A stretch of 46,233 nucleotides of DNA from Escherichia phage vB_EcoS_ASO78B: sequence record MZ726796.1. One strand, 5' to 3'. The position numbers were made by a program, and so were the translations under genes. Positions 3,676 to 46,115 of this stretch are shown here, piece by piece. The first letter of the stretch is position 1, and each line of letters opens with the position of its first letter. The notes under the pieces were generated by a model. That model did not search any database, was not told the origin of the DNA, and saw only the letters and a list, made by a program, of their open reading frames with translations.

Positions 3676-5088
3676 ATGTCAAAAATTGATGCATTAAACG
3701 CCTACATTCGCGACCGCGTGGCGAACAATAACCGGGCGATTCAGCAACAACGGCTTTGCGCTGGCGGGAAGAATCTCGACCAGAAGCGTGAGTTCATGTG
3801 GAAGGAGCTGGGCTACCCGCAGGAAATCACCGCAGAGATGTTCCGCTATGCCTATGAGCGACATCCAGCCGCCGCTGCTGGTATTAACCGCATTATTAAT
3901 AAATGCTGGCAGAAATACCCTGAAGTGGTAGAGGATGGTGAGGATGATAAGAACTCAACGCAGTGGGAGCTGTCCATCAACGACATGATGAAACGTGCTT
4001 ATCCGTTCATCAAAGAAGCTGACAAGCGCAACGCCATCAACCGCTATTCCGCCGTTATCCTGCAAATCCGCGATGGTAAGCAATGGAGTGAGCCGGTAGA
4101 CATCACCAAAACGCGCCGCATTAAAGATAAATCCATCGTCCGCTTTATTCCGGTGTGGGAAGAGCAACTACGCGTCAGTGCGTGGAATAACGACGAAACC
4201 AGCGAAGACTACGGAATGCCTGAGATGTACGAATATCAGGAAAGCGCCGTGGAAGACTTCGGCAGCGACGGCAAGCCTGAGCGTTCCGTGCAGATTCACC
4301 CTGACCGCATCATCATTCTGGCTGAGGGTAGTTTTGATGGCAGTATGTTCAGTGGCATCCCGATGCTGCGCGCTGGTTACAACAGCCTTATAGACATGGC
4401 TAAGGTTTCCGGTAGCTCCGCAGAAGGCTTCCTGAAGAATGCGAGCCGCCAGCTGGCAGTTAACTACACGAAGGATAACGTAACGCCAGCAAGCCTTGCT
4501 CAGTCAATGGGTGTCGATGTTGAAGAACTCACCGACATCATGAATGAGAACATTGAGGCACTGAATTCAGGCATCGACGCCGCTATGTTCACAATGGGGG
4601 CTGATGCAAAAGTTCTCGCCGTGACTCCAGCCGACCCGAAACCCACATGGGAAGTGGCTGCCAACCAGTTCGCCGCATCAATGGCGCTTCCATTCACCGT
4701 CATTTTCGGGCAGCAAACCGGACGCCTTGCGAGCGACGAAGACAAGATGCAGGAGGCGATGACCGCTAAGCAACGTCGCGAAACATGGGTTGACTATGTC
4801 ATCTCAATGTTCGTTGAGCGCATGATTCAGTTCGGCATCGTCGATAAAGCCCCGGCAAATGGCTACAAGGTTAAGTGGGATGACCTGCTGGCGCCATCAG
4901 AGCTGGATAAAGCGGAGTTGCTGGCTAAACTCGCCACTGCGAATAAGTCATTCTTTGATGCTGGTCAATCTGCGTTGTTGACCGTTGATGAGGCTCGCGG
5001 CATGGTTGGTATGGAGCCGATTGAACTCGACGAAAGCTATCGCGAAGACACACCACCGGAAGATGAAAATGAAGATAATCCGGTTTAA
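3676..5088 (+). CDS. portal protein
   Basis: 470-aa ORF between terminase and MuF-like head morphogenesis gene; size and position typical of siphovirus portal. Confidence 0.7.
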
Positions 5089-6019
5089 TGCCCGCCTTCC
5101 GCAACCGCGCATATCGCAGAGTCTGACAGACCCGTTAGGCGCTGCGACTCGCCTGTCAAAGATGGATAAGGTGATAACGCGCAAATACAAACAACTCAGG
5201 AATCGTGCGCTTGGGTTGTTCCGCACTATTCCGCATAGTCAGACTAACGCAGAATCAAGCGACATGTATTTCTATGATTTCAGTAGTGCGCGGGCAGCCA
5301 CGTTCATGGATGAGTTACAGGCGCTGATTGACGAGATTCTTCTGGAAGGTGATGATTTCGGTCACGGCAGGCTGTGGGCTAACGTGTTCATTGGTGATGC
5401 ATATCAGGCCGGCACACAGAAGGCAAACTCAGAGCTATCAAGCCTGTCTCCTGTTTATGCTGAGCAGAGGCCGATTGCCGCGATACTCTACAGTGAGCCT
5501 TATCTGAACCGGCTCCAGCTGGCTTATACGCAAGGATATTCAGACTGGCGCGGATTGAGTGATTATTCCCGTCAGCAACTGGCATCTGTCATCATGGAAG
5601 GCATTGCTCGTGGCGCAAATCCTCGTAACGTTGAAGCTGACATTGTTAAGCGTGTTGATGTGTCGCACAGCTACGCGAAGCAAATCGCACAGACGGAAAT
5701 TACCGGAACTCTGCGGCAGGCTAACAGGCGAGAAGTCATTGAGGCTCGCGAAGAGTTGGGTATTGAGACGGTGATGCTGTGGCAGTCGGCATTGATGCGT
5801 ACAACCCGTCAGACACACGCGGCAAGACATGGACGGTTTTACACGCCAGAAGAGATTGACACGTTCTATAGTGAGAATGGCAACAGATATAATTGTCACT
5901 GTGCGCAAATTCCAACACTGTTAATGGATGGCAAGCCAGTCATTCTTGAGTCATCACAGGAAAGGCTTGATAAGCAGCGTGAGGCTTGGCAATCGGCAAA
6001 CAAAAAGCCCTCTAAGTGA
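5069..6019 (+). CDS. head morphogenesis protein (Mu F / SPP1 gp7 family)
   Basis: C-terminal [17 protein letters not shown]...NCHC motif as in Phage_Mu_F domain; start overlaps portal 3' end. Confidence 0.75.
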
Positions 6020-6102: not shown

Positions 6103-6726
6103 TTAATCATCCAGTTTAACGCCGGGAATCTTGCCTGCTGCGATGGCGTCGTAAACAGCCTCTGCCTCATCTGATCGATTGTGTTGGCGTTCAGCCTTCG
6201 TCAACGCACCATAAATTGCATCACAAATTCTCTCGCGCTTCTTATCTGCTTCTGTGCGGATGGGGCGAAATTTCAGCGTGCCACCATACGATGAAAATTT
6301 AACATACTGGACACCCTCAAAGGTATCGCACAGCATCACCACGCCTTGCGTCCCTACAATGTAATCAATTTTGCACTTCCACCATGTTTTCCCGGCATTG
6401 AGAGAGTATTCGCATTCGCACCCCACTTGCGGGACGCCTTCGCCGTTCCATGTTGGCTTTTGCGATGCGGCGAGTGCTGCTTTATATTGCCAATAGGTCA
6501 CTATCGACTCCCTGTGGTCGCAAGATAAAGGTATGTCCTCAATTCCATGCCAGTAATGCACAAGGCTATTCCCAGTGTGATGTTTCCATGAAAATCCATC
6601 ATAGTGTGGATTATTCGTGTCCCATACACACAGCGAACCATCATCATCTTGAGTAATTGACAGAGCATTATGAGGCCACCCGCCACGCTTAGGTAATTCT
6701 TTAACTAACAGGTCGATAAGTTTCAT
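6103..6726 (-). CDS. hypothetical protein (accessory island 1)
   Basis: 207 aa, Trp/Cys-rich; GGAGGAA RBS; last gene of a 5-gene minus-strand operon. Confidence 0.5.
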   Translation of the reverse strand: MKLIDLLVKELPKRGGWPHNALSITQDDDGSLCVWDTNNPHYDGFSWKHHTGNSLVHYWHGIEDIPLSCDHRESIVTYWQYKAALAASQKPTWNGEGVPQVGCECEYSLNAGKTWWKCKIDYIVGTQGVVMLCDTFEGVQYVKFSSYGGTLKFRPIRTEADKKRERICDAIYGALTKAERQHNRSDEAEAVYDAIAAGKIPGVKLDD

Positions 6727-6947
6727 TTTGTTCCTCCATCAGAAAATATTTCTTTATATTCACCCTCAACCTCGTACAGTTCACCCAGCTTAAATACCTC
6801 ATACGAGTTTTGACCGCCTTCGCGCCATGCGTGAACCTCATTCAGCTTTTCAGCCACCGCATTAGCCTCCTGTTCAGTTGGATAAATAGCAACAACATTT
6901 GATGAAACGCCGCATTCGATGCAACCAACATTAAATACAAGCCACAT
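6723..6947 (-). CDS. hypothetical protein
   Basis: 74 aa; stop overlaps start of downstream gene. Confidence 0.45.
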   Translation of the reverse strand: MWLVFNVGCIECGVSSNVVAIYPTEQEANAVAEKLNEVHAWREGGQNSYEVFKLGELYEVEGEYKEIFSDGGTK

Positions 6948-6949
6948 AA

Positions 6950-7213
6950 TTATTCTCCCAATGCCTTATTAACCACCGCACGCGCATTATCCGGAGCGCG
7001 ACGCTTGCTTGATGCTGTCCAGACTTTGCCGGAATGGTCGTCGTAGATTTCCAGTAGCTGCTGGAGTGCGGCGAGCATGGTCTTGTTATTGTCGTGACGA
7101 TACCCAACAGAAAACCCAAGCCAAAGCCAGTCCTTTTCTCTATCCGTCATGCCGCCAAAGTCAACAGAATCGAACCATTTGCTAAATAATTGGTGCACTT
7201 CGCGCTGCGTCAT
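6950..7213 (-). CDS. hypothetical protein
   Basis: 87 aa from ATG (MTQREV..) with GAGG RBS; track ORF extends to an upstream GTG. Confidence 0.45.
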   Translation of the reverse strand: MTQREVHQLFSKWFDSVDFGGMTDREKDWLWLGFSVGYRHDNNKTMLAALQQLLEIYDDHSGKVWTASSKRRAPDNARAVVNKALGE

Positions 7214-7221
7214 CGCCAACC

Positions 7222-7365
7222 TCACTTAATATATTCCACAATCTCGCACTCGCGCATCTGCACCAGACCAAATGGCGCAACCACTTTACCGCACGGGCGG
7301 ATTTTGATTTGCTCAAGGCTGAACACTCCGCAGCGTCCGTTTTCTTTGAATTTGACCATTACCAT
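7222..7365 (-). CDS. small hypothetical protein (47 aa)
   Basis: Hand-translated ORF below the track cutoff (MVMVKFKENGRCGVF..); GAGGAA RBS 6 nt upstream; fills the gap between neighbours. Confidence 0.3.
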   Translation of the reverse strand: MVMVKFKENGRCGVFSLEQIKIRPCGKVVAPFGLVQMRECEIVEYIK

Positions 7366-7368
7366 GAT

Positions 7369-7779
7369 TTATTCCTCAATATCTCGCCAGTCCATATTGG
7401 ACTCGTTTTGTCCGTACACCCCACCGTAAAAGCCTTCACCCGGCCATACGATTTCGCCGCCATAATATCCGTTTGAATCATTGCGATAGTCAATCACCAT
7501 GTCACCTTTGTTGGTTGTAATTTTCGCTCCGTAGTATTGAACGTAATCACAACCTGGTATATCACCCAAGTCAGGCATTGCCAAATCTTCACACCCAATA
7601 ATAGTAAATGGCAACCCTAGCGCAGGCATTTCAACTGATTCAATCCATGTATACGAGCAGCAATCAGCATCAACGCGAACAACCAGTTCCTCACCATTAT
7701 CACAAACAAAAAGCATAGCCAGCTTATCTTCTGCAATTTTCACATCAACAATTTTCTTACCAATCAGTTTGTTTTCCAT
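7369..7779 (-). CDS. hypothetical protein
   Basis: 136 aa from ATG 7779 (MENKLIGKK..) with GAGGTG RBS; Gly/Tyr-rich C-terminus. Confidence 0.5.
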   Translation of the reverse strand: MENKLIGKKIVDVKIAEDKLAMLFVCDNGEELVVRVDADCCSYTWIESVEMPALGLPFTIIGCEDLAMPDLGDIPGCDYVQYYGAKITTNKGDMVIDYRNDSNGYYGGEIVWPGEGFYGGVYGQNESNMDWRDIEE

Positions 7780-7811
7780 CTTCATCACCTCATTCGTCAC
7801 TTGATGTAGAT

Positions 7812-7840
7812 ACTATGCACCACCACTCAATCTACGTCAA
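7812..7840 (-). promoter_or_regulatory. sigma70-like promoter for accessory island 1
   Basis: minus strand reads TTGACG, 17-nt spacer, CATAGT; overlaps copies of the AATCTACRYCA motif. Confidence 0.4.
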
Positions 7841-7884
7841 TACCTGTTGTGATAGAATTAATCATTATTTGAACAGGAGGCAGA

Positions 7885-8163
7885 ATGAAACTATCGCAAC
7901 GCGGCAAAGATACGCTTGGAATCGCCGATGCCGTGGATATATCGCCTTACATCACCACTGAGACAACGCAGAGTCAGTTTGATGCGATGACAAGTCTCGC
8001 CACCGACATTGGCATTGACGCTTTCCGCAAATCAACACTTCTGAGGAAACACAACCTTCGCTGCTTCTCGTGTGCGGTTGCACATTTCATCGTGTGGGGC
8101 GAGAAGACCGACAACAAAGCAAAACGCAAAGCTGAAAAAGAGGTTTACTGGTATGGCTATTAG
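7885..8163 (+). CDS. T4/P22-type (GH24) lysozyme-like protein lacking the catalytic N-terminal region
   Basis: residues 28-75 align to the C-terminal half of P22 gp19-type lysozymes (QxQ[FY]DA..SL...IG..AF..ST.LR..NL), but about 45 aa containing the catalytic region are missing; strong AGGAGG RBS. Confidence 0.5.
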   Translation: MKLSQRGKDTLGIADAVDISPYITTETTQSQFDAMTSLATDIGIDAFRKSTLLRKHNLRCFSCAVAHFIVWGEKTDNKAKRKAEKEVYWYGY

Positions 8164-8617
8164 CAAAAACATGAAGGCATTTCTGAATATGCTGGCGTAC
8201 AGTGAGGGCACGGATAACGGGCGGCAGAAAACCAATAATCATGGATATGATGTGATTGTTGGTGGCTCACTGTTTACCGACTATTCCGATCATCCGCGCA
8301 AGCTGATTAGCCTGCCTAAGCTGGGCATCAAATCCACTGCTGCAGGGCGCTATCAGGTGCTGGCTAAGTTTTATGACGCGTATAAAAAGCAGCTGCGCCT
8401 GCCTGACTTCTCTCCCGCATCACAGGACGCTATTGCAATGCAGCTAATCCGTGAATGCAAGGCCACTGCCGACATCGAGGCAGGGCGCATTGCTGATGCA
8501 ATCCATAAATGCCGCTCCCGCTGGGCTTCATTGCCGGGTGCTGGCTATGGTCAGCATGAGCAGAAGCTGGATAAGCTGATTCAGGTATACAAGGATGCTG
8601 GTGGGGCTGTGGCATGA
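8153..8617 (+). CDS. R: endolysin, lambda R-like lytic transglycosylase
   Basis: near-colinear match to lambda R: AFLNMLAYSEGTDNGRQKT.NHGYDVIVGG.LFTDYSDHPRKL, WASLPGAGYGQ.E. Confidence 0.9.
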   Translation: MAISKNMKAFLNMLAYSEGTDNGRQKTNNHGYDVIVGGSLFTDYSDHPRKLISLPKLGIKSTAAGRYQVLAKFYDAYKKQLRLPDFSPASQDAIAMQLIRECKATADIEAGRIADAIHKCRSRWASLPGAGYGQHEQKLDKLIQVYKDAGGAVA

Positions 8618-8853
8618 AAAAGTTAAGCAACTGGCTGCTCGGCGCGTGGATTTCGTTCTGTTCACTGCTGCAGCTATGGCCTGATGCAATGATGCATGTG
8701 TGGGTAATGATGCCGGATGACCTGAAAGCGGCGCTGCCTCCAATTGTGGTCAAGGGTGTGAGCTATTCAATCATGCTGGTTGGTATCCTCGGCAAGATGC
8801 ACGGCATGAGGAAGGAAAACCGGAGGCTGCGCAATAATGTCGATTCTCGCTAA
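8614..8853 (+). CDS. holin (putative, two TMDs)
   Basis: 79 aa, two hydrophobic segments and a basic C-tail; ATGA overlap with endolysin stop. Confidence 0.55.
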   Translation: MKKLSNWLLGAWISFCSLLQLWPDAMMHVWVMMPDDLKAALPPIVVKGVSYSIMLVGILGKMHGMRKENRRLRNNVDSR

Positions 8854-9325
8854 ATACTGGCGACCGTTGGCAATTATTATAATTGTTGTGCTCTGCGCGC
8901 TATGGGTGCGTGGCGAAATCATCAGCTACGGCGACCAGCGATACGCAGACGGATATGAAAAAGCCGTCGCAGACCAGAAGGCTGCAGACGAACAAGAGGA
9001 GCAACGACGCAATGCAGAACTGCAAAAGATTCAGGCCGACGCACGGCAAAGGATTGACGCTGCGCGCAATGATGCTGTCAATGCTGCTGCTAAGTCTGGC
9101 AGGTTGCAGCAACAACTCGCAAACATCCGCAAGCAGCTCGTCGGATATTCCACCACTGAGTCCATTGGCAACCCAGCCGCAGAAACCGGAGTTTTGCTCT
9201 CCGGCGTGCTCAGCAAATCTGTCGAAAGAAATCGACAACTGGCAGATTACGCTGACCGGGCAAGGGAAGCAGGACTAGCGTGTGAGGCGCAATACAATTC
9301 GCTGCGCAATAAAAAAGCCCCGTAA
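8837..9325 (+). CDS. i-spanin (Rz-like)
   Basis: N-terminal TMD LAIIIIVVLCALWV followed by a charged coiled-coil-like periplasmic domain; immediately downstream of endolysin and holin. Confidence 0.75.
   Translation: MSILAKYWRPLAIIIIVVLCALWVRGEIISYGDQRYADGYEKAVADQKAADEQEEQRRNAELQKIQADARQRIDAARNDAVNAAAKSGRLQQQLANIRKQLVGYSTTESIGNPAAETGVLLSGVLSKSVERNRQLADYADRAREAGLACEAQYNSLRNKKAP
9069..9278 (+). CDS. o-spanin (Rz1-like lipoprotein), nested in i-spanin +1 frame
   Basis: MMLSMLLLSLAGC lipobox then Pro/Ser-rich 69-aa product, entirely inside the Rz-like gene. Confidence 0.7.
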   Translation: MMLSMLLLSLAGCSNNSQTSASSSSDIPPLSPLATQPQKPEFCSPACSANLSKEIDNWQITLTGQGKQD

Positions 9326-9336
9326 TGGGGCTTGCG
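9315..9336. terminator. bidirectional terminator
   Basis: hairpin AAGCCCC-GTAAT-GGGGCTT with A-run upstream and T-rich downstream; separates convergent units. Confidence 0.6.
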
Positions 9337-9356
9337 TTTACATCCACGGGTCATGC

Positions 9357-9515
9357 TCACCGATTGGCATTTTCTCCACCCTCTCGCTTCTTCCACATCT
9401 GCTTTAGTTGAAAATAAGCATACGCTTCATCGCCATCTTTTGCATTGCGCTCCATTTGCTCGCACCATACCGATGGTTTTGGTGCCTCACTCTGCTGGCA
9501 ATGTTGTTGGCTCAT
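9357..9515 (-). CDS. small hypothetical protein
   Basis: 52 aa from ATG 9515 with GAGGAA RBS; Cys-containing. Confidence 0.3.
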   Translation of the reverse strand: MSQQHCQQSEAPKPSVWCEQMERNAKDGDEAYAYFQLKQMWKKREGGENANR

Positions 9516-9795
9516 CAACAGATTCCTCAACCGCAGCTTCAACGATGCGCACCAGTGAACACTCAAGGTTAGGTGCATTGTAATTGCCAGCCAGAAACAG
9601 CACGCTACCCGTGCTAATCAGCACCTGTTTCGCGCTTGCCTGCGACAGATTCTGCACGATGAATTGCGCTGTTTCGGTGCCAATTTTAAGCACTGCACTG
9701 CCGTCGCTGTTCAGTGATACCAGTTGCGCTGATGTGTCAGCAATGTTGGTGTAGTTCGTGTTTCGTTGCGCGATGGTCATGTCGCAGAATGACAT
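9487..9795 (-). CDS. hypothetical protein
   Basis: 102 aa from ATG 9795 (MSFCDMT..) with AGGAG RBS 7 nt upstream. Confidence 0.45.
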   Translation of the reverse strand: MSFCDMTIAQRNTNYTNIADTSAQLVSLNSDGSAVLKIGTETAQFIVQNLSQASAKQVLISTGSVLFLAGNYNAPNLECSLVRIVEAAVEESVDEPTTLPAE

Positions 9796-9796
9796 T

Positions 9797-10012
9797 TTAT
9801 GCTCCTGTAGTGATATGGATTTTGCCGTTTTCGCCATATGTTGCCGATTCGATTGTTGCAGTGATTGTGGATACTCCATCAAAAGATGCGCCGAGATTGA
9901 AGTTAACCACACCGGCAACCCTGCGCCCATCCTGATCGACAATCATACTTCTGCCGTTAATCTGCTCAATATGAAGATATACGGGTTCATCATTTTTCGG
10001 TGGCGACATCAT
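9797..10012 (-). CDS. hypothetical protein
   Basis: 71 aa; start overlaps upstream stop. Confidence 0.45.
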   Translation of the reverse strand: MMSPPKNDEPVYLHIEQINGRSMIVDQDGRRVAGVVNFNLGASFDGVSTITATIESATYGENGKIHITTGA

Positions 10013-10500
10013 TTAACCTCTCCATTCAGTTCTTTTACAATTAACGTTGCGTAGCCAGCAATATCTTTCCAGCTATCATCATAGTTTGGGTCGCCATTCA
10101 GGATGCGCCCAATCTTGTGCTGAATCATGTCGAGTGCCTCGTGTTGGCTTGGTGTCAGGTTGTGCCAGCCATCAACTTCGCGCATCACATCTTTCAGCTC
10201 CTGCATAATTTCAGCGCCATCTTTGAATTTGCCGTATCGACTACCGCGTTCGGTGATGAGCTGTTCCACCACATCTACTTCCTGCTCGCCAATGCAATCA
10301 TTGTGGTCTTGCTCGTCGGTAATTGGCTCGCGGCATGCAATAACAACATCCCCGCAACCCTCAATCACTTCAATGCGACCAGCATAATCTATGCTTAGAT
10401 AGAAAATCTCACCAGTACTTCCTGACTTAACTACAAGATAAGCCGTGTCATGGCCAGCAAAATCATCCTCACAGCCTTTCAGATATTTCCATTTTTTCAT
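10009..10500 (-). CDS. hypothetical protein with conserved phage C-terminal domain
   Basis: 163 aa; C-terminal RYGKF...W..L...QHEALDMI..KIGR...G....DSW.DIAGYA resembles an all-alpha phage domain (family not assigned). Confidence 0.5.
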   Translation of the reverse strand: MKKWKYLKGCEDDFAGHDTAYLVVKSGSTGEIFYLSIDYAGRIEVIEGCGDVVIACREPITDEQDHNDCIGEQEVDVVEQLITERGSRYGKFKDGAEIMQELKDVMREVDGWHNLTPSQHEALDMIQHKIGRILNGDPNYDDSWKDIAGYATLIVKELNGEVK

Positions 10501-10691
10501 TTCATCGTCACCCGGTTATTTTCATCAACATTAAAATTCTCACGAATCATCTGGTACATCTCATCTTTAGGCATATCAGCCAGTGCCACATAGCAACGGG
10601 CAAAGTAGCGAACATCACGGAGTGTCAGCGGCTGACGCTTCTCCACAATGCTGGTGATAATGTCCATCGGCTCTCGTCGTGGTCTTGGCAT
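10497..10691 (-). CDS. hypothetical protein
   Basis: 64 aa, first gene of the minus-strand island. Confidence 0.45.
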   Translation of the reverse strand: MPRPRREPMDIITSIVEKRQPLTLRDVRYFARCYVALADMPKDEMYQMIRENFNVDENNRVTMK

Positions 10692-10794
10692 ATTTACTAC
10701 TCCTTTCGAAATTTATTATTGACTAATCTACATCAAGTAGTCAATACTGTTTCTACACCAACGATTCTATCACAATGAGAGAGGTGATGTGGAA

Positions 10795-13405: not shown

Positions 13406-15288
<1,883 letters not shown>

Positions 15289-15290
15289 TA

Positions 15291-16361
15291 ATGGAAAAGA
15301 TTATTTTTACCAAAGACTTGGTAGCCAACTCCGCAGTAGTGGCTGACCAGTGGAAACACCTCACCATCGACCGTAAGGTATTCTGCAATGCAGAAGCTGA
15401 ACTGGCGAAAACTTACGGCGTGAACGCTACCGCACTGGTAACGAAAGATTACTGGCGCGACGTGGACAACGTCACCACCCGCGTTTTCCGCAACGAAGCT
15501 GGTCAGGATATGATGGCTGACCTGATGGGTATCGCGGCAAACATCAACATTGGTAAGACTGTGGCAATCAGCCGCATCGCTTCCGATGCTGGTAAGGTCG
15601 TCCGCACCCTGTCTGGTCAGGAACCGGAAGATCTGGATAAAACCCGCTACGATTACACTGGCGATGTGATCCCAATCTTCAAAACTGGCTACAGCCGCGA
15701 GTGGCGCGAACTGCTGGGCATGCAGTCTGAAGGTTTCGACCCGCTGCTGGACGATCAGGCTAACGTCACCTTCAACCTGCGTTCCGACATGGCGCAGTAT
15801 CTGCTGACTGGCGACCAGACTCTGAACGTGAACGGCGTTTACACTGGTTACGGCATCACCAACCACCCAAACACTGTTCAGGTTAACCTGAATGCTTCAG
15901 GCGGCCTGAATATCGACCTGCAAACCGCAACACCTGACCAAATCGTGACCTTCTTTAATCAGGATTTCCAGTCTATTCTGGATAAGCAGAACGTGTTTGA
16001 GCAGGTAACTCTGTGGGTTTCCCCGGCAGTACGTCGTAGCTTCATGCGTCCGTATTCTGACGCGGCAGGATTCAAAGGCGGCACAGTTGAGCAGTACATC
16101 ACGCAGTTCGGCAATGGTCGCATCGGCAAGATTGGCACCAACTTCCTGCTGACCGGCAACCATTTCGTTGGTTACGTTCGCAACGACATGTACATCCGTC
16201 CGCGCGTTGCTCAACCTGTTTCCACCTACGCCGCAGCCCGCGCAAACCCGCACGATAACTTCAATTTCCTCGTGTGGTCTGCTTTTGGTCTGCAAATTCG
16301 CAAGGATGCCACTGGCAAGTCCAGAGTATTCAACGGCTACGGCACGCAAACTCCGCAGTAA
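15291..16361 (+). CDS. major capsid protein
   Basis: 356 aa downstream of scaffold, followed by a strong terminator; positional and size-based call. Confidence 0.7.
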   Translation: MEKIIFTKDLVANSAVVADQWKHLTIDRKVFCNAEAELAKTYGVNATALVTKDYWRDVDNVTTRVFRNEAGQDMMADLMGIAANINIGKTVAISRIASDAGKVVRTLSGQEPEDLDKTRYDYTGDVIPIFKTGYSREWRELLGMQSEGFDPLLDDQANVTFNLRSDMAQYLLTGDQTLNVNGVYTGYGITNHPNTVQVNLNASGGLNIDLQTATPDQIVTFFNQDFQSILDKQNVFEQVTLWVSPAVRRSFMRPYSDAAGFKGGTVEQYITQFGNGRIGKIGTNFLLTGNHFVGYVRNDMYIRPRVAQPVSTYAAARANPHDNFNFLVWSAFGLQIRKDATGKSRVFNGYGTQTPQ

Positions 16362-45775: not shown

Positions 45776-45955
45776 ATGTTTAATGATATCAGCGACGCAA
45801 TGCAAAACATGTGGGAACGCTACTGGAACAGCATGAAGACATGCCACTACATGATGGTGCAGATAGGTAATTACATTGAGGTTGTGCCTGATAGTGGTGT
45901 GCATGACATTAAGTGCATGTGCTCAACGAGGGATTATGCTAATGCAAACAACTAA
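45776..45955 (+). CDS. hypothetical protein
   Basis: 59 aa from ATG 45776 with AGGAG RBS; a 35-aa TM peptide ORF at 45676-45783 precedes it. Confidence 0.3.
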   Translation: MFNDISDAMQNMWERYWNSMKTCHYMMVQIGNYIEVVPDSGVHDIKCMCSTRDYANANN

Positions 45956-46115
45956 AGCCAATGTTTGGCAGCTCGCAAAGCAGCACGAATTAGACGATTT
46001 TATCGCGAAGGTTGCAAAGGCATTCCCTGACGCGCTTGAAATCGTTCATGTGCAGACTCGCAATGAAAACGCATGGTGCTATGCTGGCAAGCGTGATAAT
46101 GATGGTGTACAATAA
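45942..46115 (+). CDS. hypothetical protein
   Basis: 57 aa from ATG 45942 with GAGGGA RBS. Confidence 0.3.
   Translation: MQTTKANVWQLAKQHELDDFIAKVAKAFPDALEIVHVQTRNENAWCYAGKRDNDGVQ

What the first reader, a model, noticed from the sequence alone, without database searches (positions are those of the whole stretch)
8837..9325. Nested spanin pair (o-spanin inside i-spanin)
A lipoprotein ORF (lipobox LAGC, Pro-rich, 69 aa) is embedded in the +1 frame of the Rz-like gene, the classic lambda Rz/Rz1 embedded architecture. It is a known type but confirms a complete Gram-negative lysis cassette located unusually between head genes.
Basis: partly seen in the sequence, partly recalled or inferred. Interest (0 to 1): 0.3.

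Follow-up and report, generated by a model that had tools for sequence, protein, structure and literature searches.

The report
Embedded spanin gene pair, already catalogued
This is a real but ordinary pair of overlapping phage lysis genes (an inner-membrane spanin with an outer-membrane lipoprotein spanin nested in its +1 frame), and the same pair in 90%-identical phages is already annotated and listed in the published spanin database.

Summary
Window 8837-9325 (+) encodes a 162-aa i-spanin: N-terminal membrane helix, DUF2514, PHROG 312 "Rz-like spanin". A lipoprotein ORF ending at 9278 lies wholly inside it in the +1 frame, with lipobox SLAG|C and a 57-aa mature part (PHROG 11621).

It is not a chance ORF:
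- Only 1 of 10,000 synonymous recodings of the i-spanin gives an out-of-frame lipoprotein-like ORF.
- All 31 relatives keep the ORF, the lipobox, the 57-aa mature length and two periplasmic cysteines.
- i-spanin synonymous sites are three times less variable inside the overlap.

- The likely start is the invariant ATG at 9012 (88-aa precursor, conserved AGGAG upstream), not ATG 9069 (69 aa). The 69-aa form fails the PROSITE lipoprotein rule.
- The pair copies the lambda Rz/Rz1 architecture but belongs to other sequence families.
- The cassette's position between the portal/head-morphogenesis genes and the decoration/capsid genes is the normal layout of Skatevirus-like phages.

The orthologous pair of phage Vi II-E1 is in SpaninDB (Kongari 2018) as "embedded", 163 + 88 aa. 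Phage Skate's record and genome announcement name the embedded pair. Verdict: already known, low interest.

The parts
7885..8163 (+). First gene of the lysis cassette: a 92-aa protein matching only the C-terminal half of a GH24 phage lysozyme. Its role is unknown.
   Evidence: It matches PF00959 at profile positions 55-112 of 125 and phrog_10457 at 2.7e-40. It is intact at 92 aa in 31 of 31 relatives, with codon-position diversity 0.046/0.039/0.196.
8153..8617 (+). Endolysin: a lambda-R-type lytic transglycosylase of 154 aa.
   Evidence: It is 66% identical to lambda R over 154 aa, E 4e-73, and matches phrog_90 at 1.3e-56. The Skate ortholog is annotated endolysin/transglycosylase.
8614..8853 (+). 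Holin, 79 aa, with two hydrophobic segments and a basic C-terminal tail. Its ATG overlaps the endolysin stop (ATGA), and its 3' end overlaps the i-spanin start by 17 nt.
   Evidence: It matches phrog_13249 'holin' at 9.4e-52 and PF25612 DUF7940 at 1.1e-9. Skate annotates its ortholog as a class II holin. The overlaps are read from the sequence.
8822..8826 (+). Shine-Dalgarno sequence GGAGG for the i-spanin, 10 nt upstream of ATG 8837.
   Evidence: Read from the sequence. SpaninDB lists the same motif for phage E1.
8837..9325 (+). i-spanin gene, 162 aa. N-terminal membrane helix at about residues 10-23 (nt 8864-8905), then periplasmic helix 1, a break at residues 107-112, and helix 2. Cys149 is invariant.
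   Evidence: It matches PF10721 DUF2514 at 2.1e-31 and phrog_312 'Rz-like spanin' at 4.6e-49. The AlphaFold2 model has helices 8-106 and 113-159 at mean pLDDT 64.7. C149 is invariant in the 15-sequence alignment.
8994..9001 (+). Shine-Dalgarno sequence AAGAGGAG for the o-spanin, lying inside i-spanin codons 53-55.
   Evidence: It is invariant in 30 of 31 sequences, including at i-spanin third positions. SpaninDB lists AGGAG for the E1 o-spanin.
9012..9278 (+). o-spanin gene, +1 frame, wholly embedded. The most likely precursor is 88 aa: a 31-aa signal peptide (basic n-region of residues 1-18, h-region AMMLSMLLLSL) and a 57-aa mature lipoprotein.
   Evidence: It matches phrog_11621 'Rz-like spanin' at 3e-36. 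It passes the PS51257-type rule with Cys32. ATG 9012 is invariant in 31 of 31. The orthologs in E1 and Skate are curated at 88 aa.
9069..9278 (+). It would give the same mature product.
   Evidence: ATG 9069 becomes ACG in L017 and GTG in L024. ATG 9072 becomes ACG in L020. Cys would be at position 13 with no K/R before it, which fails the lipoprotein rule.
9096..9107 (+). Lipobox L-A-G-C. The Cys codon at 9105-9107 is the predicted lipidation site, and Ser at +2 implies outer-membrane sorting.
   Evidence: L[AV]GC is present in 31 of 31 sequences. The +2 residue is S, N, G or A and never D.
9315..9333 (.). GC-rich hairpin AAGCCCCGTAATGGGGCTT overlapping the i-spanin stop codon. It marks the end of the cassette and is the convergent terminator.
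   Evidence: The terminator scan finds it on the minus strand: 7 pairs followed by TTTTATTG. Skate annotates a minus-strand terminator at the same place.

Best explanation
Window 8837-9325 carries a two-component spanin in the embedded architecture, the last module of a late lysis cassette. The cassette runs: half-lysozyme-like ORF, lambda-R-type transglycosylase, holin, i-spanin/o-spanin. The phage is a Skatevirus-like siphophage of E. coli or Salmonella.

Shown here:
- The i-spanin (162 aa) has an N-terminal membrane helix and a largely helical periplasmic part.
- The o-spanin is read in the +1 frame, most probably from ATG 9012 (88 aa). It carries a signal-peptidase-II signal ending in SLAG|C.
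- It would be lipidated on Cys32, cut to a 57-aa Ser/Pro/Gln-rich lipoprotein, and sent to the outer membrane, because residue +2 is Ser and not Asp.

Inferred from work on lambda Rz/Rz1 (PMC6139136, PMC5295617):
- The C-terminal parts of the two proteins bind each other across the periplasm. [quoted passage not shown]
- After the holin triggers and the endolysin removes the peptidoglycan mesh, the complexes collapse and fuse the inner and outer membranes. That fusion destroys the last barrier to phage release.
For: - Both products match spanin profiles (phrog_312 at 4.6e-49 and phrog_11621 at 3e-36). The i-spanin also matches DUF2514.
- The adjacent genes are a holin and an endolysin.
- The 88-aa form passes a PROSITE-type lipoprotein rule.
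- The joint recoding null gives 1 in 10,000.
- 31 of 31 relatives keep the ORF, the lipobox, the 57-aa mature length, two mature-domain cysteines and a non-Asp residue at +2.
- Synonymous-site diversity of the i-spanin is 0.10 inside the overlap against 0.29 outside, p about 1e-3.
- The Shine-Dalgarno sequence and ATG 9012 are conserved.
- The model shows two helices separated by a break.
- The region is about 90-92% identical to phages whose records annotate I-spanin and O-spanin.
- SpaninDB lists the E1 ortholog as embedded, 163 + 88 aa, signal 31 aa, mature 57 aa.
- The Skate genome announcement states that an embedded i-spanin/o-spanin pair is present.
Against: - No experiment on this pair or its close orthologs was found. 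Function rests on profile matches, anatomy and analogy with lambda.
- No dedicated signal-peptide predictor (SignalP or LipoP) was available. My rule-based test also flags about 1% of arbitrary start sites in the window.
- The n-region of the 88-aa precursor is unusually long (18 residues). The real start (9012, 9054 TTG or 9069/9072) is inferred from conservation only.
- The AlphaFold2 model has low confidence (pLDDT 64.7).
- Part of the reduced diversity in the overlap could come from stronger constraint on the i-spanin itself.
Confidence: 0.93

Rival explanations
1. The +1 ORF is a by-product of i-spanin amino-acid composition (Ala/Gln/Arg-rich codons rarely give +1 stops) and is not a gene. 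Outer-membrane disruption is done by the DUF2514 protein alone or by something else.
For: ORF length alone is not significant. Synonymous recodings reach a 131-codon open +1 frame in 5% of trials and an ATG ORF of at least 88 codons in 9%. A lipobox tetrapeptide appears in 14% of recodings.
Against: The full combination (ATG ORF, basic n-region, uncharged h-region, lipobox, at least 40 aa of mature part) arises in 1 of 10,000 recodings. It is kept in 31 of 31 relatives at identical mature length, even where the sequence has been replaced (L032, L034). Synonymous sites are suppressed inside the overlap. The product matches an o-spanin profile at 3e-36.
Confidence: 0.02
2. The o-spanin is translated from ATG 9069 or 9072, as the first reader assumed (69 or 68 aa). 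This gives a minimal 12-residue signal peptide. The mature product would be the same.
For: Two adjacent ATGs sit immediately before the hydrophobic core. At least one of them, or a GTG, is present in every relative.
Against: Cys would be at position 13 with no K/R in the n-region, which fails the PROSITE-type rule requiring Cys at 15-35 and K/R within the first 7 residues. No Shine-Dalgarno sequence lies at a suitable distance: AAGGA is about 16 nt upstream. Each internal ATG is lost in some relative by a change that is silent in the i-spanin (L017, L020, L024). ATG 9012 and its AGGAG are essentially invariant. Curators chose 88 aa for E1 and Skate.
Confidence: 0.12
3. The pair is a true homolog (family member) of lambda Rz/Rz1, not merely an analog with the same architecture.
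For: Pairwise BLASTP of the i-spanin against lambda Rz gives 26% identity over 112 residues, E 1e-6 for the single comparison. The signal peptides are weakly alike. Both o-spanins give weak hits to phrog_456. The adjacent endolysin is 66% identical to lambda R.
Against: The window proteins do not match PF03245 or PF06085, even at E up to 0.1 to 1, whereas lambda Rz and Rz1 match them at 2.6e-54 and 2.9e-20. The best PHROGs differ: 312 and 11621 here, 13 and 3198 for lambda. The pairwise similarity lies in the membrane helix and a low-complexity charged helical segment. SpaninDB places E1 in the 'Bcep176' family, not the lambda family.
Confidence: 0.1

Closest known systems
Embedded spanin pair of Salmonella phage Vi II-E1 (NC_010495) in SpaninDB (Kongari et al. 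2018, PMC6139136), and the annotated I-spanin/O-spanin of Salmonella phage Skate (MH321493; PMC6606912)
   Same: These are orthologs. The DNA is about 90% identical across the cassette and the i-spanin is 90% identical as protein. They share the embedded +1 architecture, the 88-aa precursor with a 31-aa signal and 57-aa mature part, the SLAG|C lipobox, the Shine-Dalgarno motifs, and one periplasmic Cys in the i-spanin plus two in the o-spanin.
   Different: Only point substitutions. The window i-spanin starts MSIL..., without the extra N-terminal Met of most relatives. It also carries a non-conserved Cys20 in the membrane helix.
Lambda Rz/Rz1
   Same: The o-spanin is wholly embedded in the +1 frame of the i-spanin, spanning 0.36-0.90 of its length here. 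The pair is the last module of a cassette with a holin and an R-type transglycosylase. The i-spanin has a membrane helix, helix 1, a linker and helix 2. The o-spanin is a small lipoprotein with little predicted structure. Periplasmic cysteines are present.
   Different: The sequence families differ: DUF2514, phrog_312 and phrog_11621 here, against PF03245, PF06085, phrog_13 and phrog_3198 for lambda. The mature o-spanin is 57 aa against 40 aa, with 10.5% Pro against 25%. It has two periplasmic Cys (CxxxC) instead of one. The gene order is endolysin-holin-spanins instead of holin-endolysin-spanins.
Unimolecular spanin (T1 gp11)
   Same: Same function (outer-membrane disruption), and both have a lipoprotein signal.
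   Different: gp11 is a single chain with an N-terminal lipobox and a C-terminal membrane helix, and it has no periplasmic Cys (PMC6139136). Here there are two separate chains. The lipoprotein has no C-terminal hydrophobic segment.

Membership tests
Two-component spanin, embedded architecture (criteria of Kongari et al. 2018) | The i-spanin has a single N-terminal transmembrane helix, with the bulk of the protein in the periplasm. | tested here: met
   Residues 10-23 (PLAIIIIVVLCALW) are preceded by K6 and R9. The model has a helix from residue 8 onward. The hydrophobic core is conserved. Topology itself is inferred.
Two-component spanin, embedded architecture (criteria of Kongari et al. 2018) | The periplasmic domain of the i-spanin is largely alpha-helical, in two segments separated by a linker. 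| tested here: met
   The AlphaFold2 model has helices 8-106 and 113-159 with a break at 107-112. Mean pLDDT is only 64.7. No coiled-coil predictor was run.
Two-component spanin, embedded architecture (criteria of Kongari et al. 2018) | The o-spanin has a signal-peptidase-II signal with a lipobox [LVI][ASTVI][GAS]C. | tested here: met
   LAGC is preceded by an 11-residue uncharged h-region and a basic n-region. The 88-aa form passes the PS51257-type rule. The feature is conserved in 31 of 31 sequences. SignalP and LipoP were not available.
Two-component spanin, embedded architecture (criteria of Kongari et al. 2018) | Outer-membrane sorting: no Asp at position +2 of the mature lipoprotein. | tested here: met
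   Residue +2 is Ser here, and S, N, G or A in relatives.
Two-component spanin, embedded architecture (criteria of Kongari et al. 2018) | The o-spanin gene lies entirely within the i-spanin gene in another reading frame. | tested here: met
   9012 (or 9069) to 9278 lies inside 8837-9325 in the +1 frame. This spans 0.36/0.47 to 0.90 of the i-spanin length, against a typical 0.4-0.5 to 0.9-1 (PMC6139136).
Two-component spanin, embedded architecture (criteria of Kongari et al. 2018) | The pair lies next to holin and endolysin genes. | tested here: met
   The holin at 8614-8853 and the endolysin at 8153-8617 lie directly upstream with overlapping ends.
Two-component spanin, embedded architecture (criteria of Kongari et al. 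2018) | At least one periplasmic cysteine is available for homotypic disulfides. | tested here: met
   i-spanin C149 is invariant. o-spanin mature C31 and C35 are present in 31 of 31 sequences. Disulfide formation itself was not tested.
Two-component spanin, embedded architecture (criteria of Kongari et al. 2018) | [quoted passage not shown] | not testable with these tools
   This needs complementation of lambda Rz(am)Rz1(am), or pull-downs.
SpaninDB 'Bcep176' i-/o-spanin families; PHROG 312 and 11621; Pfam DUF2514 | Significant sequence match to the family profiles or to catalogued members. | tested here: met
   PF10721 scores 109.6 bits against a cutoff of 26. phrog_312 matches at 4.6e-49 and phrog_11621 at 3e-36. 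The i-spanin is 90% identical to the catalogued E1 i-spanin.
Lambda Rz (Pfam PF03245) and Rz1 (Pfam PF06085) sequence families | Match to the family HMMs above the gathering threshold. | tested here: not met
   There was no hit for either window protein at E up to 0.1 and 1. Lambda Rz and Rz1 hit at 2.6e-54 and 2.9e-20. Pairwise similarity is weak.
Unimolecular spanin (T1 gp11 type) | A single chain with an N-terminal lipobox and a C-terminal transmembrane helix. | tested here: not met
   The lipoprotein ends ...WQITLTGQGKQD with no hydrophobic C-terminus. The membrane helix is on the other protein.

The most novel reading that the evidence does not exclude
The o-spanin may have two functional starts. 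ATG 9012 would give an 88-aa precursor with an unusually long, strongly basic 18-residue n-region. ATG 9069/9072 would give a 68-69-aa form with no charged n-region. Their ratio, or slow export of the long form, could tune when spanin complexes accumulate, in the way dual-start holins tune timing. The n-region DNA (9012-9068) is the most conserved stretch of the gene in all three codon positions. That fits this reading, but it fits strong constraint on i-spanin residues 59-77 just as well.
Probability: 0.04. Interest if true: 0.35.

Novelty: already known. Interest (0 to 1): 0.07.

Why it matters
It matters little beyond correct annotation. The result confirms that this phage carries a complete canonical Gram-negative lysis system. 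It also shows that the embedded o-spanin, which automatic pipelines often miss (Bas78 and most relatives annotate only the i-spanin), should be annotated at 9012-9278. The comparative data add a small illustration of dual-coding constraint. They also show the i-spanin C-terminal domain and the mature o-spanin being exchanged as one module, as shared DNA requires.

Tried and rejected
- **ORF length as evidence.** The synonymous-recoding null gives P of about 0.05-0.09, so length alone is too weak. I replaced it with a joint signal-peptide null and comparative tests.
- **Pfam on the o-spanin.** No family matched, not even PF06085 Rz1.
- **NCBIfam.** Nothing useful for any cassette protein.
- **First Pfam call.** It failed because I gave an out-of-frame coordinate.
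- **Promoter scan upstream of the cassette.** No convincing plus-strand sigma-70 site lies in 7800-7885, and hit counts equal the shuffled expectation.
- **Lipoprotein-rule scan of the whole window.** It flags 12 of 1,113 candidate starts, so the rule alone is not specific. One flagged ORF (45876-46115) matches its PHROG only from residue 23 on, so its apparent lipobox probably lies upstream of the real start.
- **Longer versions of the +1 ORF (TTG 8883, ATG about 8955).** Rejected, because relatives carry stop codons between these sites and ATG 9012.
- **The expensive protein-database and metagenome searches.** Not run, because 171 phage records and 33 viral contigs already answered the question.

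Full report
**What is in the sequence.** The window 8837-9325 (+) is an ATG-initiated ORF of 162 codons. Its product begins MSILAKYWRPLAIIIIVVLCALWVRGE..., that is, two basic residues followed by a 14-residue hydrophobic segment. The rest is rich in Ala, Gln, Arg and Glu.

In the +1 frame an ORF is open from 8883 to the stop at 9276-9278. From ATG 9069 it reads MMLSMLLLSLAGCSNNSQ... LAGC is at 9096-9107. So the described object is there at the stated coordinates.

**Is it more than chance?** ORF length alone is not convincing. I re-encoded the i-spanin protein with synonymous codons drawn from the window's own usage.
- A +1 frame open for at least 131 codons appeared in 5% of trials.
- An ATG ORF of at least 88 codons appeared in 9% of trials.
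- A bare lipobox tetrapeptide appeared in 14% of trials.

The full combination is much rarer. It requires an ATG ORF with K/R in the first seven residues, an uncharged h-region, a lipobox with Cys at position 15-35, and at least 40 residues after the Cys. That appeared in 1 of 10,000 recodings, counting both alternative frames.

Comparative evidence is stronger. I fetched 33 related viral contigs and could extract the full i-spanin gene from 30 of them.
- All 31 sequences, window included, keep the +1 ORF, L[AV]GC, a mature part of exactly 57 residues, two further cysteines at mature positions 31 and 35, and a non-Asp residue at +2.
- At codons where the i-spanin amino acid never changes, third-position nucleotide diversity is 0.10 inside the overlap and 0.29 outside (Mann-Whitney p = 1.3e-3; 4.5e-4 without the two mosaic relatives).
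- The +2 frame carries 7-14 stops per gene. The +1 frame carries 2-6, none of them inside the o-spanin.

It fails a PROSITE PS51257-type rule. The form starting at ATG 9012 (MQNCKRFRPTHGKGLTLRAMMLSMLLLSLAG|C, 88 aa, Cys32) passes.
- ATG 9012 is invariant in all 31 sequences.
- The AAGAGGAG at 8994-9001, 10-11 nt upstream, is invariant in 30 of 31, although it sits on i-spanin third positions that could vary silently.
- Each internal ATG is lost somewhere through a change that is silent in the i-spanin: 9069 in L017 and L024, 9072 in L020.
- Longer upstream extensions are excluded by stop codons in relatives.
- Curators made the same choice. SpaninDB lists the phage E1 o-spanin as 88 aa with a 31-aa signal and 57-aa mature part. 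Skate annotates 88 aa.

The mature lipoprotein is the same whichever start is used.

**What the two proteins are.**
- The i-spanin matches Pfam DUF2514 (2.1e-31) and PHROG 312 "Rz-like spanin" (4.6e-49).
- The o-spanin matches PHROG 11621 "Rz-like spanin" (3e-36).
- An AlphaFold2 model of the i-spanin from 15 sequences has low confidence (mean pLDDT 64.7). It gives the expected layout: one helix from residue 8 to 106 (membrane helix plus periplasmic helix 1), a break at 107-112, and a second helix at 113-159.
- Cys149 near the C-terminus is invariant. Cys20 in the membrane helix is not conserved.
- The mature o-spanin has 11 Ser, 6 Gln and 6 Pro in 57 residues. It is Ser/Pro/Gln-rich rather than strongly Pro-rich.

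**Context.** Upstream on the same strand, with overlapping ends, lie three genes.
- A 92-aa ORF (7885-8163) matches only the C-terminal half of a GH24 lysozyme.
- A 154-aa transglycosylase (8153-8617) is 66% identical to lambda R.
- A 79-aa holin (8614-8853) matches phrog_13249 at 9.4e-52.

A GC-rich hairpin at 9315-9333 overlaps the i-spanin stop codon. So a complete Gram-negative lysis cassette is present, in the order endolysin, holin, spanins.

It does lie between head genes. Terminase (996-2477), portal (3676-5088) and head morphogenesis (5069-6019) lie upstream. Decoration (14818-15288) and a capsid-like structural protein (15291-16361) lie downstream. Blocks of small ORFs on both strands separate the cassette from both groups.

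This layout is not peculiar to the window. The window is collinear with Escherichia phage Bas78 at about 90% identity. Bas78 and Skate have the same order. The whole group is the Skatevirus cluster of small O-antigen-dependent siphoviruses (PMC11990801).

**How it most likely works.**
- Shown here: two overlapping genes under dual-coding constraint, encoding a membrane-anchored helical protein and a lipoprotein with an outer-membrane sorting signal, placed next to a holin and an endolysin.
- Inferred from lambda Rz/Rz1 (PMC6139136, PMC5295617): the two proteins join through their C-terminal regions into a complex spanning the periplasm, stabilised by homotypic disulfides. The candidates here are i-spanin C149 and the o-spanin CxxxC.
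- Also inferred: once the endolysin has removed the peptidoglycan, the complex collapses and fuses the inner and outer membranes.

One observation fits a C-terminal interaction module. In two divergent relatives (L032, L034) the i-spanin sequence changes abruptly from about residue 92. That point is the o-spanin Cys codon. The i-spanin C-terminal domain and the whole mature o-spanin are therefore replaced together. The signal peptide and the i-spanin N-terminal half stay nearly identical, and the length and cysteine positions are kept.

**Comparison with what is known.** In architecture this is the lambda Rz/Rz1 arrangement: the same +1 frame and a typical relative position of 0.36-0.90 of the i-spanin length. 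In sequence it is not a member of lambda's families.
- Neither window protein hits PF03245 or PF06085, whereas lambda's proteins do.
- The best PHROGs differ.
- Pairwise similarity is weak and sits in the membrane helix and the charged helix.
- SpaninDB files the E1 orthologs in the "Bcep176" family.

**Novelty.** None.
- The ortholog in Salmonella phage Vi II-E1, whose i-spanin is 90% identical, is catalogued as an embedded spanin pair in Kongari et al. 2018.
- The Skate GenBank record annotates I-spanin and O-spanin.

The practical point is that many relatives, including the closest one (Bas78), annotate only the i-spanin. The o-spanin at 9012-9278 should be added to any annotation of this genome.

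**Limits.**
- No SignalP or LipoP was available.
- My rule-based test is not specific on its own: it flags 12 of 1,113 arbitrary starts in the window.
- No experimental data exist for this spanin family.
- The start-codon assignment rests on conservation.

Noticed in passing
window 7885-8163 (+): The first gene of the lysis cassette is a 92-aa protein matching only the C-terminal half of a GH24 phage lysozyme (PF00959 profile positions 55-112 of 125), so the catalytic N-terminal part is missing. There is no room for that part upstream. The ORF is nevertheless intact at exactly 92 aa in 31 of 31 relatives, with diversity 0.046/0.039/0.196 at codon positions 1/2/3. It therefore looks like a selected gene rather than a relic. 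Databases call it 'endolysin', but its role is unknown. It sits next to a complete lambda-R-type endolysin.
   Followed up: partly
L032:1498-1974 and L034:1498-1974, compared with window 9105-9325: The mosaic junction falls exactly at the o-spanin lipobox Cys codon. The i-spanin C-terminal domain and the mature o-spanin are replaced together by an unrelated sequence of the same length with the same cysteine positions. The 5' part stays nearly identical.
   Followed up: partly
window 8153-9325: The gene order is endolysin, holin, spanins, not lambda's holin, endolysin, spanins. Junctions are tightly coupled: ATGA at 8614-8617, and the holin 3' end overlaps the i-spanin start by 17 nt.
   Followed up: no
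window 9315-9333: The hairpin AAGCCCCGTAATGGGGCTT overlaps the i-spanin stop codon. Its T-run is on the minus strand, so it looks like the terminator of the convergent minus-strand genes. It has only a weak tail for the lysis transcript.
   Followed up: no
window 6103-7800 (-) and 9340-10700 (-): The cassette is bracketed by two blocks of small minus-strand ORFs of unknown function (phrog_7798, phrog_2650 and phrog_17775). The late-gene region is therefore interrupted several times by opposite-strand modules. This layout is conserved in Bas78 and Skate.
   Followed up: no
window 45876-46115 (+): A TTG-initiated 79-aa ORF with an apparent lipobox (LSAC) passes the lipoprotein rule. Its PHROG match (phrog_18384, unknown function) starts only at residue 23, so the lipobox is probably upstream of the real start and a false positive.
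   Followed up: partly
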